Origin: a virus
Taxonomy: Duplodnaviria; Heunggongvirae; Uroviricota; Caudoviricetes
IMG/VR virus record: IMGVR_UViG_2728369393_000012
Reading direction: 5' to 3' (one strand)
Length of the DNA: 21,819 nucleotides
Part shown: positions 9,001 through 17,915 of the stretch, one piece after another
Numbering within the stretch: the stretch's first letter is position 1
How the letters are laid out: every line of letters starts with the position of its first letter
The notes under the pieces: model-generated
What the model was told of the DNA's origin: nothing
Database searches by the model: none
Seen by the model: the letters and a program-made list of their open reading frames with translations, nothing else
Made by a program: the position numbers and the translations under genes

Positions 9001-9186
9001 AGAACTCACAAGGAAAATGATAGAAGGAAATAACATTAGTGATGTACGCATGGCGCCTCCCGCTAAGTTCTGCAATGATCAAACAGAACTCGCTACGTGC
9101 CCTTAAAACTCGATCATTTAGCCCCTCCAAGGAGGATTCACCATGCGGTTGGTTTTTTAATAAACAGTAAACAAAAAAGTCAAGAA

Positions 9187-9297
9187 TTATTCATTCTGTT
9201 CTTTCATCATCGGCCACAGCAATACCACAATGCCGCAGACCAGAGCGCCATCAGTCAGTACCAACATTATCCTGCTGGTGAAATCCATCATCACCAT
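9187..9297 (-). CDS. Possible small hydrophobic peptide (36 aa, one TM segment)
   Basis: Unlisted short ORF MVMMDFTSRIMLVLTDGALVCGIVVLLWPMMKEQNE; no convincing SD. Confidence 0.2.
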   Translation of the reverse strand: MVMMDFTSRIMLVLTDGALVCGIVVLLWPMMKEQNE

Positions 9298-9430
9298 CAC
9301 TAAAAGCAGGATCACAACAGCAAGCAGACACAGTTTATAAAACAATGTTCAGAAAACGCATTCAGCATGCCTAAGGTTCTATTCCTACGAATAGCCAACT
9401 TGCAACTTAAAATATTATTTATGCAGCCAA

Positions 9431-10147
9431 TTAAATTCTGGTCCTTACAATATCAACCTGAAGATTCTTATCTTGTGCTGATTGATAAATCACAAACCTT
9501 TTACTACCTGCATTGAAAGAAGTAGACAAAACCAGACAATTATCATAACGAGCAAGAACATAATACCAACCATCATTATAATTAATCATTTCATATTCTT
9601 TCTTAAACTGCGGTTTGTAATATCCTGTCAGAAATGAAAAAAGCCAGAAATATGCCACAAAAGCAATCATCACAATCTCAAAAAAATGTTTTTTTATAAA
9701 TGGCTTATCATAGAAGCATGATACCGATAAAAATCGCCCATAAGATCTTATCGAAATTGTAACCGCCAGCGCAATCGCTGCTGACAGTAGCAAAAGAGGT
9801 ACCTGAATCTTCTGTCTCAATATAGAAAACTCAATAATTGCCGGCACAAACAATAATTCCACAGCAAAATAAAGGCGAAATACATTTAGCTCTTGCATAG
9901 AATGTTTTCTTTTCACTGCGAAAAAGAATACAACACCAATACCCCAACCGATAAGAAATATAGCAATGACGATAACTGCAAAAAATAAACTTCTGGCAAC
10001 ATCATCAACACCTGCACCTACAATCCACCATGGGAAGCCGTAGTAAAAAGAAGTACCCCATCCATAGAAATAAGCACTCCCCCATCCAAGGCATCCCATG
10101 TAGGCAATAAAAAGTGAAGAACTCCTGAGCAGCGCACCATCCTTCAT
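9431..10147 (-). CDS. Multi-pass inner-membrane protein of unknown function (238 aa from the Met with a GGGGTGG SD; ORF open to 10189), AT-rich cargo between late promoter and lysis genes
   Basis: Long ORF with several hydrophobic helices and W/Y/F-rich loops; low GC; sits where Stx phages carry stx. Confidence 0.6.
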   Translation of the reverse strand: MKDGALLRSSSLFIAYMGCLGWGSAYFYGWGTSFYYGFPWWIVGAGVDDVARSLFFAVIVIAIFLIGWGIGVVFFFAVKRKHSMQELNVFRLYFAVELLFVPAIIEFSILRQKIQVPLLLLSAAIALAVTISIRSYGRFLSVSCFYDKPFIKKHFFEIVMIAFVAYFWLFSFLTGYYKPQFKKEYEMINYNDGWYYVLARYDNCLVLSTSFNAGSKRFVIYQSAQDKNLQVDIVRTRI

Positions 10148-10355
10148 AACCACCCCAATACAAGATGATAACATTGGCTTACAACTCATAACAAAAGCAA
10201 TTCAATGCCGTCAAGAGGTTACAGGCTAAAAAAACTCTATTACATTGCAGTCAGCATGTTTACTACACAAATACAATTCAGAGCATAAAAACTACTCGGC
10301 GGCAGGTTATTGAGACTCATCAATGACATGTAAAAAACGCCCATTATTGGTGTCA

Positions 10356-10384
10356 AGTTTCCCCAAAGTTATTCAAAAAGTCAA
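10356..10384 (-). promoter_or_regulatory. pR'-like late promoter (-35 TTGACT, 17-bp spacer, -10 GAAACT) with presumed qut region
   Basis: Immediately downstream of Q; resembles lambda pR' (TTGACT-TATTGAATAAAATTGGG-TAAATT) as recalled; the -10 is weak. Confidence 0.4.
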
Positions 10385-10426
10385 TATTATGCCGTTAATA
10401 TGTTGCCATCCGTGGCAATCATGGCG

Positions 10427-11050
10427 CTAACGTGTGATCGCATTCAAAATGTTGTCTGCGATTGACTCTTCCTTGTGGCATTGCACAACCAGAGCGTCAT
10501 ACAGCGGCTTAACAGTGCGTGACCAGGTGGGTTGGGTAAGGTTTGGGATTAGCATCGTCACAGCGCGATATGCGGCGCTTGCTGGCATTCTTGAATAACC
10601 GACGCCTTTACATCTTCCGCACTCTTTCTCAGCAACTATCCCCCACTGCTCTGTTTTGGCTATATCAACCGCACGGCCTGTACCGTGGCAATCTCTGCAT
10701 CTTGCGCCCGGCGTAGCGGCACTACGGCAATAATCCGCATAAGCGAATGTTGCGAGCACTTGCAGTACCTTTGCCTTAGTATTTCCTTCAAGCTTTGCCA
10801 CGCCACGGTATTTCCCCGATACCTTGTGTGCAAATTGCATCAGATAGTTGATAGCCTTTTGTTTGTCGTTCTGGCTGAGTTCGTGCTTACCACAGAATAC
10901 AGCCATTCCGAATCCGGCTTGTGATTGCGCCATCCCCATAGCAGCCATCACATCAGTACCGGAAAGAGAGTCAGAAGCCGTGGCCCGTGGTGAGTCGCTC
11001 ATCATCGGGCTTTTTGGCGAATGAAATTTAGCTACGCTTTCGAGTCTCAT
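10427..11050 (-). CDS. Late-gene antiterminator Q (phage 82/21-type, zinc-binding CRDCHGTG...CGRCKG motifs)
   Basis: 207-aa ORF between ninI and pR'; Cys4 motif typical of Q82-family antiterminators; start overlaps the ninI stop. Confidence 0.75.
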
Positions 11051-11712
11051 GCGCCTTCTCCCTGTACCTGAATCAATGTGAGGTTTCCGCAGAACACTGC
11101 GCCAGTATCGATATACATCTGGTTGGCAAATTTGAGTGGTTTCACTGCTGGCGTATGACCAAAGATGAACGTGTCCGCGCCTTTGATTTCTTTCACGATC
11201 CCGTCTTGTGAGTTGCTGATTCGTTCGCGGTTCCAGATTACCTGCTGATGATCAACTGGCTTTCCAAACTCGTATTTATCACAAGGATAATCGGCGTGGC
11301 AGATGACATATTTTTTTCCTTTACTCACCAGTTCGATGATTAACGGAAGTTCATCTGCTTTATGGGCAAGAGCTTTAGCCAGAATTTCTTTGTCGTAATC
11401 GAGATTAAAGAACCAGCCACCGCCATTAAGCAGCCAGTGATTGACGTTTCCACGCTCTGATAAGCCATCAATCATCATTTGCTCATGGTTTCCACGTACA
11501 GCTCTGAACCAGGGGAATGTGATTAATTCCAGGCATTCTACGTTCTCTGTACCGCGATCAACCAAATCGCCCACCGAGATAAGCAGGTCTTTTTTGGTGT
11601 CGAATCCTATCGTCTCCAGTTTTTTCATCAGGTTCGTGTAGCATCCGTGCAGATCGCCAGCTACCCAAATATTTCGGTATTTGCTGCCATCAATTCTTTC
11701 GTAGATATTCAT
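11047..11712 (-). CDS. ninI: Ser/Thr protein phosphatase NinI (lambda PPase, ORF221)
   Basis: GDLHG, GDLVDRG and GNHE metallophosphatase motifs; near-identical to lambda Nin221 as recalled. Confidence 0.9.
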
Positions 11713-11849
11713 GCAACCTCACTTCTGCTATTTCGCAGGTCTTTGAGTTTCTGTTGGTACTCTGCCTTGATCGCCTTGCACTCTTCGACAGTCCAGCGAT
11801 AGCGGTTATGGTTTGATTCGATTTCGTCTACTGCTTCCTGCCCGATTCG
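11709..11849 (-). pseudogene. ninG: ninG (rap) 3' fragment, last about 45 codons only, no start codon
   Basis: Reads ...[46 protein letters not shown], matching the lambda NinG C-terminus; the upstream frame is closed by a stop and unrelated sequence. Confidence 0.75.
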
Positions 11850-11855
11850 GTTAAC

Positions 11856-12047
11856 GATGAAACCATGCAGGAGATTAACACTCTGCTGATTGCCCTGGAT
11901 AAAACATGGGATGACGACTTATTGCCGCTCTGTTCCCAAATATTTCGCCGCGACATTCGCGCATCGTCAGAACTGACACAGGCCGAAGCAGTGAAAGCTC
12001 TTGGATTACTGAAACAGAAAGCCACTGAGCAGAAGGTGGCAGCATGA
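11856..12047 (+). pseudogene. bet: bet (Red-beta) 3' fragment, last about 63 codons, diverging from the ninG fragment at a deletion junction
   Basis: ...[64 protein letters not shown] matches the lambda Bet C-terminus; the stop overlaps the exo ATG. Confidence 0.8.
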
Positions 12048-12724
12048 CACCGGACATTATCCTGCAGCGTACCGGGATCGACGTGAGAGCTGTCGAACAG
12101 GGGGATGATGCATGGCACAAATTACGGCTCGGCGTCATCACCGCTTCAGAAGTTCACAACGTGATAGCAAAGCCCCGCTCAGGAAAGAAGTGGCCTGACA
12201 TGAAAATGTCCTACTTCCACACCCTGCTGGCTGAGGTTTGCACCGGTGTGGCTCCGGAAGTTAATGCTAAGGCGCTGGCCTGGGGAAAACAGTACGAGAA
12301 CGACGCCAGAACCCTGTTTGAATTCACTTCCGGCGTGAATGTTACTAAATCCCCGATCATCTATCGCGACGAAAGTATGCGCACCGCCTGCTCTCCCGAT
12401 GGTTTATGCAGTGACGGCAACGGCCTTGAACTGAAATGCCCGTTTACCTCCCGGGATTTCATGAAGTTCCGGCTCGGTGGTTTCGAGGCCATAAAATCGG
12501 CTTACATGGCCCAGGTGCAGTACAGCATGTGGGTGACGCGAAAAGATGCCTGGTACTTTGCCAACTATGACCCGCGTATGAAGCGTGAAGGCCTGCATTA
12601 TGTCGTGATTGAGCGGAATGAAAAGTACATGGCGAATTTTGACGAGATGGTGCCGGAGTTCATCGAAAAAATGGACGTGGCACTGGCTGAAATTGGTTTT
12701 GTATTTGGGGAGCAATGGCGATGA
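12044..12724 (+). CDS. exo: Lambda exonuclease (Red-alpha), 226 aa, intact
   Basis: Near-identical to lambda Exo as recalled. Confidence 0.9.
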
Positions 12725-12882
12725 AGCATCCTCACGATAATATCCGGGTAGGCGCGATCACTTTCATCTACTCCGTTACAAAGCGAGGCTGGGTATTTCC
12801 CGGCCTTTCTGTTATCAGAAATCCACTGAAAGCACAGCGGCTGGCTGAGGCGATAAATAATAAACGGGGGCTGTATGACTGA
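12721..12882 (+). CDS. Small phage protein (53 aa), probably lambda orf60a-like
   Basis: Unlisted [27 protein letters not shown]...; ATGA overlap with exo; its stop overlaps the next ATG. Confidence 0.5.
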
Positions 12883-13432
12883 TTTCACCGGAAGCAATAC
12901 TCCTGCCGAACATCGCGACAGCTGGCGCACACCACCAGAGATTTTTGCTGCGCTTAATGCAGAGTTCGTTTTTCAACTTGATGCTGCCGCCAGCGAAAAA
13001 AACCGACTATGTCGGCTTTTTATCTCACAGGAGCAGAACACATTAACCACTTCATGGCCTGAAGCAATGGGATATGCCTCTGGTTATGTCTGGTTGAATC
13101 CACCATACAGCAATATTTCCCCTTTTGTGAAAAAGGCAGCCACTGAAAACAAATTCAGTAGTGTGGGATGTGTAATGTTATTGCCTGCTGACACATCTGT
13201 CGGATGGTTTCATGAAGCGATACAAACCGCCAGTGAGGTCAGATTCATCACAGCAGGACGACTGGCATTTATTAACCCACTCACTGAGAAACCCGTCAGT
13301 GGAAATAATAAAGGCTCGATGCTCATTATCTGGCACCCATACCCCCGTACACACTGCCACTTTACGACCGTTGATCGTGGAGAGTTGATGGCGTTCGGCT
13401 CAAGGATTCTTGCCCGTCGGGAGGCTGCATGA
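12875..13432 (+). CDS. Phage orphan DNA N6-adenine methyltransferase (Dam-like, NPPY motif), 185 aa
   Basis: Catalytic LNPPYS motif; translationally coupled within the exo operon; no restriction-enzyme partner nearby. Confidence 0.7.
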   Translation: MTDFTGSNTPAEHRDSWRTPPEIFAALNAEFVFQLDAAASEKNRLCRLFISQEQNTLTTSWPEAMGYASGYVWLNPPYSNISPFVKKAATENKFSSVGCVMLLPADTSVGWFHEAIQTASEVRFITAGRLAFINPLTEKPVSGNNKGSMLIIWHPYPRTHCHFTTVDRGELMAFGSRILARREAA

Positions 13433-14044: not shown

Positions 14045-14742
14045 GCGAAATTAACTATCAGGCACTACGTGAGATAGCAAAACAGGCAACACAGGGCGAA
14101 TGGGTCGCGTTTATTTCGACGGGTACAGGTACGTATGCTGTGCATACGCCCGGTGATAAACGATGTGAAGATGTTATCAAATGGACCGGCTTTGATGGAC
14201 TGAAAAACGCAGAGAACAACGCTCGTTATGTTGCCGCATTCAACCCAAAGGTTGCACTGGAGCTACTGGGTGAAATTAAGCGCCTGGAGGACACAAATAT
14301 TGATGCTATGTGCCGAATAGCACCGCTTGAGACTAAGCTCGCGGCTCTGGTGGCAGAGAACGCCGGGCTGAAACACGCAATGGCTGTAACTCTTGATCAT
14401 GTGTCGGTCACGGATGCAGGGCAGGCCGGAGTTGCTGCAATGATTATCAACGATGCCCTACACCACAGCGAAACTCCAGCTACCGATGCTTTTCTGGCTG
14501 AAATTCGTGCGGAAGCACGCAACGAGGGGATTAACTATACCGCCAGCCGTCTTGCTGCTGCGTTCAATCACGGATTTATCAATAAGTCTTTGCGTGAAGT
14601 TTTCGACGTTACGCGCATGATTCTGTCAGCGAAAGAAGAGTTGGCTAATGAACCGTACCCGATTGATGGCCTGTCCGGTGAATATGCGGAGAAATCCCTT
14701 GAAGAATGGGCGGAACAGATTCGCAAAGGAGTTCAGTCATGA
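14041..14742 (+). CDS. Hypothetical phage protein (233 aa), possibly Ead/Ea22-like
   Basis: Position equivalent to the lambda ea22 region; GTG start overlapping the upstream stop; family call from memory only. Confidence 0.5.
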   Translation: MSEINYQALREIAKQATQGEWVAFISTGTGTYAVHTPGDKRCEDVIKWTGFDGLKNAENNARYVAAFNPKVALELLGEIKRLEDTNIDAMCRIAPLETKLAALVAENAGLKHAMAVTLDHVSVTDAGQAGVAAMIINDALHHSETPATDAFLAEIRAEARNEGINYTASRLAAAFNHGFINKSLREVFDVTRMILSAKEELANEPYPIDGLSGEYAEKSLEEWAEQIRKGVQS

Positions 14743-14908: not shown

Positions 14909-16076
<1,168 letters not shown>

Positions 16077-16206
16077 TGGAGCACCTGTGTTGTTCTGAGG
16101 TGAGCATATCACCTCTGTTCAGGTGGCCAAATTCAGTGCGCCACTACAGTTACCTGATGAAGAGCACGAAGGCGAAACATTCAATGAATGTCCACTTAGC
16201 TGGGGA

Positions 16207-17841: not shown

Positions 17842-17915
17842 TTGCGTGTAATTGCGGAGACTTTGCGATGTATGAGGTGTACTGGCAATAGCGGACACTA
17901 CCATTTGTTCTTTTT

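What the first reader, a model, noticed from the sequence alone, without database searches (positions are those of the whole stretch)
11709..12047. Back-to-back bet and ninG fragments mark a single deletion that removed the immunity and replication region
A 3' fragment of bet on the plus strand and a 3' fragment of ninG on the minus strand diverge from one junction at about 11847..11855. In lambda order this corresponds to loss of everything from mid-bet through gam, kil, cIII, N, rex, cI, cro, cII, O, P and ninA–F to mid-ninG. The prophage therefore has no repressor or replication genes, yet exo, Q, ninI and the pinholin remain intact with their promoters pL and pR deleted.
Basis: partly seen in the sequence, partly recalled or inferred. 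Interest (0 to 1): 0.5.

Follow-up and report, generated by a model that had tools for sequence, protein, structure and literature searches.

The report
Deletion scar in a cryptic lambda-like prophage
This is the scar of a roughly 10-11 kb deletion that removed the immunity and replication genes from a lambda-like prophage in E. coli, which is ordinary prophage decay; the one unusual point is that the break in the bet gene falls at exactly the same few bases in several unrelated prophage remnants.

Summary
Window 11709-11854 (minus strand) is the last 146 nt of ninG. Window 11848-12047 (plus strand) is the last 200 nt of bet, followed by intact exo. Both pieces are colinear on one lambda strand, so the joint is a simple deletion of lambda-equivalent 32225-42897 (10.7 kb). 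The two pieces overlap by CGGTTAA (11848-11854). An intact relative (E. coli D1, 99.2% identical over 3.7 kb) carries exactly this heptamer in ninG, so one microhomology-mediated deletion explains the joint.

The element is a 19.9-kb remnant at the lambda attachment site (ybhB/ybhC). It has no lambda-type repressor, N, O or P. Its exo, ninI, Q and S21-type pinholin genes are full length. RefSeq already annotates the two fragments as partial genes. The joint occurs in 6 of 5,426 complete E. coli genomes.

There is one extra result. The bet end of the joint, within CCGG|TTAA|CG, is reused in at least seven different junction types. Five keep the exo side and two keep the gam side. They occur at two chromosomal sites. 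A control GTTAAC site in gene P shows no junctions. This recurrent breakpoint is unexplained.

The finding itself is routine. The hotspot is a modest new lead.

The parts
11709..11854 (-). 3' fragment of ninG (lambda NinG codons ~157-204 plus stop codon 11709-11711). It has no start codon, and its stop overlaps the ninI start.
   Evidence: It is 99.2% identical to intact ninG of E. coli D1 up to 11854.
11848..11854 (.). Deletion joint: the heptamer CGGTTAA, shared by the parental ninG allele and bet (microhomology).
   Evidence: The two lambda alignments overlap here. D1 ninG reads GATTCGGTTAATCAG and lambda bet reads ACTCCGGTTAACGATG.
11848..12047 (+). 3' fragment of bet (Bet residues ~196/197-261). 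It encodes only the C-terminal Exo/SSB-binding three-helix bundle. The in-frame ATG at 11865 gives a 60-aa ORF whose stop overlaps the exo start.
   Evidence: The ORF matches PDB 6M9K and 8TFU (Red-beta C-terminal domain) at E about 1e-32. Domain roles are from PMC9512822 and PMC6393309.
12044..12724 (+). Intact exo (226 aa, lambda exonuclease, YqaJ family).
   Evidence: 97.3% amino-acid identity to lambda Exo over 226/226 residues. Pfam PF09588.
11047..11712 (-). Intact ninI (221-aa Ser/Thr phosphatase), directly abutting the ninG fragment with no ninH between them.
10427..11050 (-). Intact lambda-type Q antiterminator (207 aa). Lambda homology continues to window 10352 (lambda 44584), the pR' region.
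   Evidence: The protein is identical to that of D1 (WP_001235472.1).
8350..8565 (-). Intact S21-type class II holin (pinholin), 71 aa.
   Evidence: Pfam PF04971, E = 1.4e-32. RefSeq annotates it as 'class II holin'.
8150..8151 (.). A second, separate deletion joint inside the endolysin gene. Homology to the intact D1 prophage stops here, and a tail-fibre gene follows.
568..582 (-). Lambda att core (bio-side prophage end).
   Evidence: Exact match to GCTTTTTTATACTAA; 0 matches expected by chance.
20475..20489 (-). Lambda att core (ybhC/gal-side prophage end), next to lambda-type xis and int (about 19138-20398).

Best explanation
The region is the scar of an illegitimate, microhomology-mediated deletion inside a lambdoid prophage integrated at the lambda attachment site.

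The parent had a lambda-like left arm (int, xis, exo, bet) and a right arm like that of the E. coli D1 prophage (O, P, ren, ninB-G, ninI, Q, pinholin). Recombination between the direct 7-nt repeat CGGTTAA in bet (codon 196/197) and in ninG (codon 157) removed about 10-11 kb. The lost segment held the Bet annealing domain, gam, the whole immunity region with pL and pR, the replication genes and most of the nin region.

What remains is two divergent promoterless blocks. One is bet'-exo toward int. The other is ninG'-ninI-Q toward the pR'-pinholin module. The remnant can neither repress, replicate nor (after a second deletion at 8150/8151) lyse or build particles.

Shown: the identity of the fragments, colinearity, the microhomology in the parental alleles, the absence of lambda-type immunity and replication genes, and the intact ORFs. 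Inferred: that it was one step, and that exo and Q are now silent or driven only by fortuitous transcription.

The bet end coincides with a recurrent breakpoint, so the event probably began with a DNA end at G|TTAA|C in bet.
For: The two fragments are colinear on the lambda minus strand, 43043-42898 and then 32224-31194.

The right arm 8151-11854 is 99.2% identical to an intact prophage in E. coli D1. That homology ends exactly at CGGTTAA, where D1 continues TCAGTTCG (ninG) and the window continues CGATGAAACC (bet).

Lambda proteins gam through ninF give no tblastn hit in the window. RefSeq annotation of the near-identical strain lists no repressor or replication gene between ybhB and ybhC.

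Att cores flank the element. The same joint is present in 6 complete genomes from several laboratories.

All 190 deposited phages that carry this bet region are intact across the site, so truncation is a feature of chromosomal remnants.
Against: A sister lineage (FORC 064 and 5 other genomes) has the same bet end joined to ninG 318 nt further in. If that lineage carried the D1 ninG allele, a 4-nt TTAA microhomology would convert it into the window's joint, so a two-step history is not excluded.

Thousands of 7-nt repeat pairs exist in 10 kb, so microhomology alone does not explain why this pair was used.

No expression data exist. The promoter scan found nothing above the shuffle expectation (2 sites against 3.5 expected), so the transcriptional state of exo and Q is inferred only.
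Confidence: 0.75

Rival explanations
1. Two-step (nested) deletion. A first deletion joined bet (from TTAACG) to ninG at lambda 42580, as in FORC 064. A second 318-320 bp deletion between TTAA in ninG (CGGTTAATC) and TTAA at the old joint then produced the present junction.
For: The FORC064-type joint exists at the same chromosomal site with the same bet end. With the D1 ninG allele, the TTAA-mediated product would be exactly the window sequence.
Against: The window and FORC 064 differ at 26 of 870 positions in bet'+exo, whereas the window differs at only 5 from an intact phage allele (L014). They also differ in ninG'/ninI (96.6% identity), which argues for separate origins. The direct route has a longer microhomology (7 nt against 4 nt). 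FORC 064's ninG carries GCGGCTAA, not CGGTTAA.
Confidence: 0.12
2. The deletion was made by a mobile element or site-specific recombinase: an IS-mediated adjacent deletion, Int acting at a secondary site, or an invertase/resolvase pseudo-site.
For: The remnant is riddled with IS600 and IS3-family copies. The bet end is reused with nucleotide precision, as expected for a fixed element end.
Against: No IS sequence or terminal repeat lies at or near the joint. The sequence passes directly from ninG to bet. Neither end is at att. Partner sites share only 2-7 nt with the bet site and have no common longer motif.
Confidence: 0.05
3. The apparent junction is an assembly or scaffolding error, or a natural gene order in some lambdoid phage, not a deletion.
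For: None from the tools.
Against: Identical joints occur in six complete genomes. The ninG fragment has no start codon and the bet fragment lacks the whole annealing domain. None of 190 deposited phages has bet truncated here.
Confidence: 0.02

Closest known systems
Cryptic (defective) lambdoid prophages of E. coli, such as DLP12 at argU and the CP-933K/Sp3-type remnants at ybhC-ybhB in EHEC (the latter from my own knowledge)
   Same: It is a lambda-family prophage fixed in the chromosome by internal deletions and IS insertions. It retains int/xis, fragments of the recombination and nin regions and a Q gene, and carries type III effector genes (EspJ, NleG) as cargo.
   Different: This particular bet'/ninG' joint is rare, found in 6 of 5,426 complete genomes. 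I did not find it described in the literature searched.
Classical cryptic lambda prophages and lambda deletion mutants that lack immunity (laboratory genetics of the 1960s-70s, from my own knowledge)
   Same: The immunity region is lost from an integrated prophage while both prophage ends are retained.
   Different: Those were laboratory isolates, some linked to an IS2 insertion. Here the event is natural, has no IS at the joint, and shows a 7-nt microhomology.
Short-homology-dependent illegitimate recombination / microhomology-mediated deletion in E. coli
   Same: Direct repeats of a few nucleotides lie at both parental sites and one copy is kept at the joint.
   Different: One partner site (bet GTTAAC) is reused in at least seven different joints in both directions. 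That is not expected from random microhomology pairing.
Red-beta C-terminal domain (PDB 6M9K, 8TFU)
   Same: The 60-aa ORF at 11865-12047 equals Bet residues 202-261 with 2 substitutions. This is the three-helix bundle that binds lambda Exo and SSB (PMC6393309).
   Different: It lacks the first ~7 ordered residues of the domain (order begins at about residue 195). It has no recognisable ribosome-binding site and no known promoter. There is no evidence that it is made.

Membership tests
Lambdoid prophage integrated at att-lambda | Two copies of the 15-bp att core flank the element between the host genes ybhB (bio side) and ybhC (gal side). | tested here: met
   Exact cores at 568-582 and 20475-20489, with 0 expected by chance. 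Host flanks are seen in the annotation of the near-identical strain.
Lambdoid prophage integrated at att-lambda | Lambda-type int and xis lie next to one att core. | tested here: met
   Int 356/356 aa at 99.2% identity and Xis at 98.6% identity to lambda.
Functional (inducible) lambdoid prophage | Repressor/cro, N, replication genes O/P and ori are present. | tested here: not met
   No tblastn hit for lambda cI, cro, cII, cIII, N, O, P or ren. None is annotated in the near-identical RefSeq record. Non-lambda immunity types were checked only through that annotation.
NinG/Rap (PF05766) | A full-length protein of about 200 aa with its N-terminal Cys-rich part. | tested here: not met
   Only profile positions 151-192 of 193 are present and there is no start codon. 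It is a pseudogene fragment.
Bet/Red-beta single-strand annealing protein | The N-terminal annealing domain (residues 1-177) is present. | tested here: not met
   Only residues 196-261 are encoded. NTD residues 1-177 carry DNA binding and annealing (PMC9512822).
Bet/Red-beta single-strand annealing protein | The C-terminal Exo-binding three-helix bundle is present. | tested here: met
   The 60-aa ORF aligns end to end with PDB 6M9K chain D and 8TFU chain A.
Microhomology-mediated deletion | The two flanks are colinear in the parental order, and the same short sequence is present at both parental sites with one copy at the joint. | tested here: met
   Colinearity. CGGTTAA is present in D1 ninG and in bet.
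IS-mediated adjacent deletion | An IS end lies at the joint. | tested here: not met
   The sequence passes directly from ninG to bet. The nearest IS copies are at 4650-5921 and about 14909-16077.
Restriction-type cleavage at every GTTAAC | Other conserved GTTAAC sites in lambdoid genes also act as junction hotspots. | tested here: not met
   At the control site in gene P (lambda 39606), 97 + 38 pattern hits in IMG/VR were all SNP variants and none was a junction. At the bet site 6 of 7 hits were junctions. Only one control site was tested.

The most novel reading that the evidence does not exclude
The palindrome GTTAAC at Bet codons 197-198 is a site-specific DNA-break hotspot. The break has a 4-nt stagger across TTAA, and the 3' ends are preserved and primed at terminal microhomology. 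It repeatedly starts deletions that disarm lambdoid prophages.

At least seven different joints use it. Five keep the exo side: ninG at two positions, ylcG, and gam at two positions. Two keep the gam/Bet-NTD side and join to intD at two positions. They occur in prophages at att-lambda and at argU.

In exo-side joints the microhomology always starts at the first T (TT, TT, TTA, TTAA). In gam-side joints it ends within TTAA (TAA, TA). The cause would be an unidentified nuclease (homing-type, defence-related or restriction-like), a topoisomerase, or a replication-stall site. The break also coincides with the linker/C-terminal-domain boundary of Red-beta.
Probability: 0.4. Interest if true: 0.6.

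Novelty: new member of a known kind. Interest (0 to 1): 0.33.

Why it matters
The scar itself only documents how one EHEC/EPEC-type cryptic prophage, carrying the effector genes EspJ and NleG, was locked into the chromosome. That is useful for annotation and for typing this lineage.

It leaves an intact lambda-type Q gene and exo in the chromosome. These could matter if they are transcribed: Q acting in trans on late promoters of co-resident (for example Stx) prophages, or Exo supplying recombination functions to other phages. This is not shown here.

The recurrent bet breakpoint would matter more if confirmed. It would mean that prophage inactivation is partly directed by a specific fragile or cleaved site, not by random deletion, and it would give an entry point for finding the responsible activity.

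Tried and rejected
(1) Promoters for exo or Q. The consensus scan of 10200-13000 gave 2 sigma-70-like sites against 3.5 expected from shuffles, so nothing usable.

(2) Hairpin-stall idea. A 5-bp stem, CCGGA-N12-TCCGG, abuts the break, but folding is not better than shuffles (z = -1.3 and -0.8). I keep this only as a speculation.

(3) Gyrase idea. A 4-nt stagger fits a type II topoisomerase. However, the published E. coli data say quinolone-stabilised cleavage favours scission before G (PMC6379681), and here scission would be before T. There is no specific support.

(4) Generic GTTAAC restriction. One control site in gene P showed no junctions.

(5) Reciprocal junctions (Bet NTD side kept). None was found in IMG/VR, which at first suggested strict polarity. 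Two such types were then found in complete E. coli genomes, so the polarity idea was dropped.

(6) Metagenome scan for more partners. It gave only one contig, a one-T variant of the gam joint.

(7) Literature searches for a known bet hotspot or truncated bet in prophages returned nothing relevant.

(8) Common descent of all truncated forms. This was rejected because their bet'+exo alleles are as far from each other as from intact phages, and because each joint is a different novel adjacency.

(9) Selection for a stand-alone Bet C-terminal domain as the reason for the fixed end. This was rejected as sufficient, because selection cannot give single-nucleotide precision when the partners lie in both orientations.

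Full report
**What is at the coordinates**

The sequence from 11709 to 12047 holds two gene fragments that point away from each other.

- On the minus strand, 11709-11854 aligns to lambda 43043-42898 at 95.9% identity. This is the last 146 nt of ninG, including its stop codon.
- The translation [46 protein letters not shown] has no start codon upstream. It matches only positions 151-192 of the 193-position NinG Pfam profile.
- On the plus strand, 11848-12877 aligns to lambda 32224-31194 at 97.1% identity. This is the last 200 nt of bet, all of exo, and orf60a.
- tblastn finds Bet residues 196-261 only.

It is the 7-nt overlap CGGTTAA at 11848-11854.

**Is it real?**

The window equals the chromosome of E. 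coli CFSAN004176 apart from one 415-bp IS600-associated indel at window 4422-4836. A 171-nt probe across the joint is 100% identical in six complete genomes from human and cattle isolates. RefSeq annotates the two pieces there as NinG and Bet genes 'missing N-terminus'. An assembly artefact is excluded.

**Context**

- Exact lambda att cores lie at 568-582 and 20475-20489. ybhB is on one side and ybhC on the other. The element is therefore a 19.9-kb remnant at the classical lambda attachment site.
- From the ybhC side it carries lambda-type int and xis, IS600, an IS3-family element, Ea22-like, TraR-like and Dam genes, a DUF1317 gene, exo and bet'.
- After the joint come ninG', ninI, Q, three small genes, an S21-type holin, a truncated endolysin fused to tail-fibre remnants, two IS600 copies, and the effector genes NleG and EspJ.
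- Lambda Gam, Kil, CIII, Ea10, Ral, SieB, N, RexA/B, CI, Cro, CII, O, P, Ren, NinB-F and NinH give no tblastn hit anywhere in the window.
- Exo (226/226 aa, 97.3%), NinI (221/221, 94.6%) and Q (207/207, 97.6%) are full length. The 71-aa holin matches the P21 holin family.

**How the joint arose**

Both flanks are colinear on the lambda minus strand, so a single internal deletion of lambda-equivalent 32225-42897 (10,673 bp in lambda coordinates) is enough.

The best model for the right arm of the parent is an intact prophage in E. coli strain D1. Window 8151-11854 is 99.2% identical to it over 3,704 nt, and the Q protein is identical.

D1 ninG reads ...CCCGATTCGGTTAATCAGTTCG. The window reads ...CCCGATTCGGTTAACGATGAAACC. 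Lambda bet reads ...CACTCCGGTTAACGATGAAACC. The parental sites therefore share a perfect 7-nt direct repeat, CGGTTAA, and one copy remains. This is the signature of short-homology illegitimate recombination. It also explains the T at 11847, which matches neither lambda ninG nor bet and is simply the D1-type allele.

No IS end or att site is at the joint. In D1 the arm continues ninF, ninE, ninD, a methyltransferase, ninB, ren, P, O, cII, cro-like and an S24 repressor. This shows what was lost on that side.

**Consequences (inferred)**

pL, pR and the whole immunity and replication region are gone, so the remnant cannot repress, replicate or be induced on its own.

- bet'-exo and ninG'-ninI-Q are now two divergent blocks without their native promoters.
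- A consensus scan found no promoter-like site above chance.
- Lambda homology downstream of Q runs to lambda 44584. From my memory of the lambda map, this includes the pR' promoter region. If so, the pinholin kept its own promoter but lost the pR-driven supply of Q.
- A second, unrelated deletion joint at 8150/8151 cuts the endolysin gene.

**The bet fragment**

The in-frame ATG at 11865 opens a 60-aa ORF that ends in ATGA overlapping the exo start. It equals Red-beta residues 202-261 (2 substitutions) and aligns end to end with the crystallised C-terminal domain, PDB 6M9K and 8TFU.

Published work assigns DNA binding and annealing to residues 1-177 and the Exo and SSB contacts to the C-terminal three-helix bundle. 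Residues 183-194 form a disordered linker (PMC9512822; PMC6393309). The fragment therefore cannot anneal DNA. Whether the small domain is made is unknown, and there is no obvious ribosome-binding site.

**Single step or not?**

Six other complete genomes (FORC 064 type) have, at the same chromosomal site, the same bet end joined to a 462-nt ninG remnant (lambda 43043-42580). A TTAA-mediated second deletion could in principle convert such a joint into the window's.

Three observations argue against that route:

- The two lineages differ at 26 of 870 positions in bet'+exo, while the window differs at only 5 from an intact phage allele.
- FORC 064 carries the CGGCTAA ninG allele.
- The direct route has the longer microhomology.

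I rate one step at about 0.75 and two steps at about 0.12.

**An unexpected pattern: the bet end is reused**

Searching IMG/VR for TTAACGATGAAACC... preceded by any base but G gave 7 hits, and 6 of them are junctions. Together with complete E. coli genomes, I found these joints at CCGG|TTAA|CGATG (lambda 32222-32217).

| Side kept | Partner | Strains / loci | Genomes | Shared bases at the joint |
|---|---|---|---|---|
| exo side | ninG at lambda 42898 | the window type | 6 | CGGTTAA |
| exo side | ninG at lambda 42580 | FORC 064 type | 6 | TT |
| exo side | ylcG | strain P377 | 1 | TAA, one T lost |
| exo side | gam at lambda 32926 | P13-6, UMNF18 and others | 7 | TTA |
| exo side | gam at lambda 33180 | APEC O78 and others | 21 | TT |
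| gam / Bet-NTD side | intD | strain 11PC and 3 others | 4 | TAA (...CCGGTTAA\|GCGAG) |
| gam / Bet-NTD side | intD, 72 nt further upstream | CFSAN061772 | 1 | TA (...CCGGTTA\|CCGCC) |

- The P13-6/UMNF18 type sits in a DLP12-type prophage at argU that still has its immunity and replication genes.
- The gam-33180 joint also has a one-T variant in a gut metagenome contig.
- Both gam-side joints are in DLP12-type prophages at argU.

In two samples of 80 IMG/VR loci chosen by Exo or Bet C-terminal similarity, the only other bet truncations were at lambda 32307 and 32473, one junction type each. A further one at lambda 32164 was seen in E. coli. All 190 deposited phage genomes are intact across the site. 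A control GTTAAC site in gene P gave 135 pattern hits, all of them point variants and none a junction.

Each joint is a different novel adjacency, so each needs its own illegitimate event, whatever the genealogy.

The microhomology always starts at the first T in exo-side joints and ends within TTAA in gam-side joints. This is what one expects if a 3' end terminating ...GTTAA on either strand of the palindrome is preserved and pairs by its last 2-4 bases. In other words, it fits a break staggered by 4 nt across TTAA.

What makes the break is not known. A weak hairpin next to the site is not significant. The published preference of quinolone-trapped gyrase for cutting before G does not fit. A restriction activity cutting every GTTAAC is not supported by the one control.

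[quoted passage not shown] Selection cannot by itself explain nucleotide precision with partners in both orientations.

**Verdict**

This is an ordinary deletion scar in a cryptic lambdoid prophage. It is already visible in public annotation as two partial genes and is rare as an allele (6 of 5,426 genomes).

Its interest is low on its own. It is raised somewhat by the recurrent, bidirectional breakpoint in bet, which I could document but not explain.

Noticed in passing
window 11850-11855 (GTTAAC); also L002 13871-13876, L005 1503-1510, L095 ~12104, L096 ~12108, L178 6098-6104, L179 ~380-384: The same few bases of bet (CCGG|TTAA|CG, lambda 32222-32217) are the endpoint of at least seven different deletion joints, in prophages at att-lambda and at argU and in both directions. 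A control GTTAAC site in gene P shows none.
   Followed up: partly
window 11865-12047 (+): The leftover bet ORF (60 aa) is almost exactly the crystallised Red-beta C-terminal domain that binds lambda Exo and SSB. It is still stop/start-overlapped (ATGA) with an intact exo. It is unknown whether it is expressed.
   Followed up: partly
window 8150/8151: A second deletion joint: homology to the intact D1 prophage stops inside the endolysin gene. This leaves an ORF (8350 down to 6812, minus strand) that starts as endolysin and is annotated as a tail-fibre N-terminal-domain protein. The pinholin has therefore lost its endolysin partner.
   Followed up: partly
window 3157-4422, 4650-5921, 17873-19137 (IS600 copies); about 14909-16077 (IS3-family element): There are three IS600 copies and one other IS3-family element in a 20-kb remnant. 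The window differs from the closest complete genome (CFSAN004176) only by a 415-bp segment between two IS600 copies (4422-4836), so the IS600 cluster is still rearranging within this lineage.
   Followed up: partly
window 981-1634 (+) and 2533-3114 (-): The type III secretion effector genes EspJ and NleG sit at the bio-side end of the remnant, just inside the att core. The decayed prophage is in effect an effector island.
   Followed up: no
window 11709-11712: The ninG stop overlaps the ninI start directly. The ninH gene that separates them in lambda is absent here and in the intact D1 prophage. This is a natural mosaic difference, not part of the deletion.
   Followed up: yes
window 12875-13432 (+): A phage Dam-type N6-adenine methyltransferase (PF05869) occupies the place of lambda orf63/orf61 downstream of exo.
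   Followed up: no
L004 1571-1581 (D1 ninG), L002 11139-11149 (ylcG), L096 ~14596-14606 (intD): Three of the partner sites used with the bet hotspot resemble it beyond the minimal overlap: CGGTTAAT, CGGTAATC and CGGCTAAG against CGGTTAAC in bet. Another bet truncation, at lambda 32473, also lies at ACCGTAATC. This may only reflect microhomology choice, or it may hint at a preferred sequence.
   Followed up: no
L096 (E. coli P13-6, NZ_CP080223.1 3565707-3589917): A DLP12-type prophage at argU that is much less decayed than the K-12 copy. It keeps exo, repressor, cro-like, O and P genes, yet it already carries the gam'/bet' joint at the hotspot.
   Followed up: no
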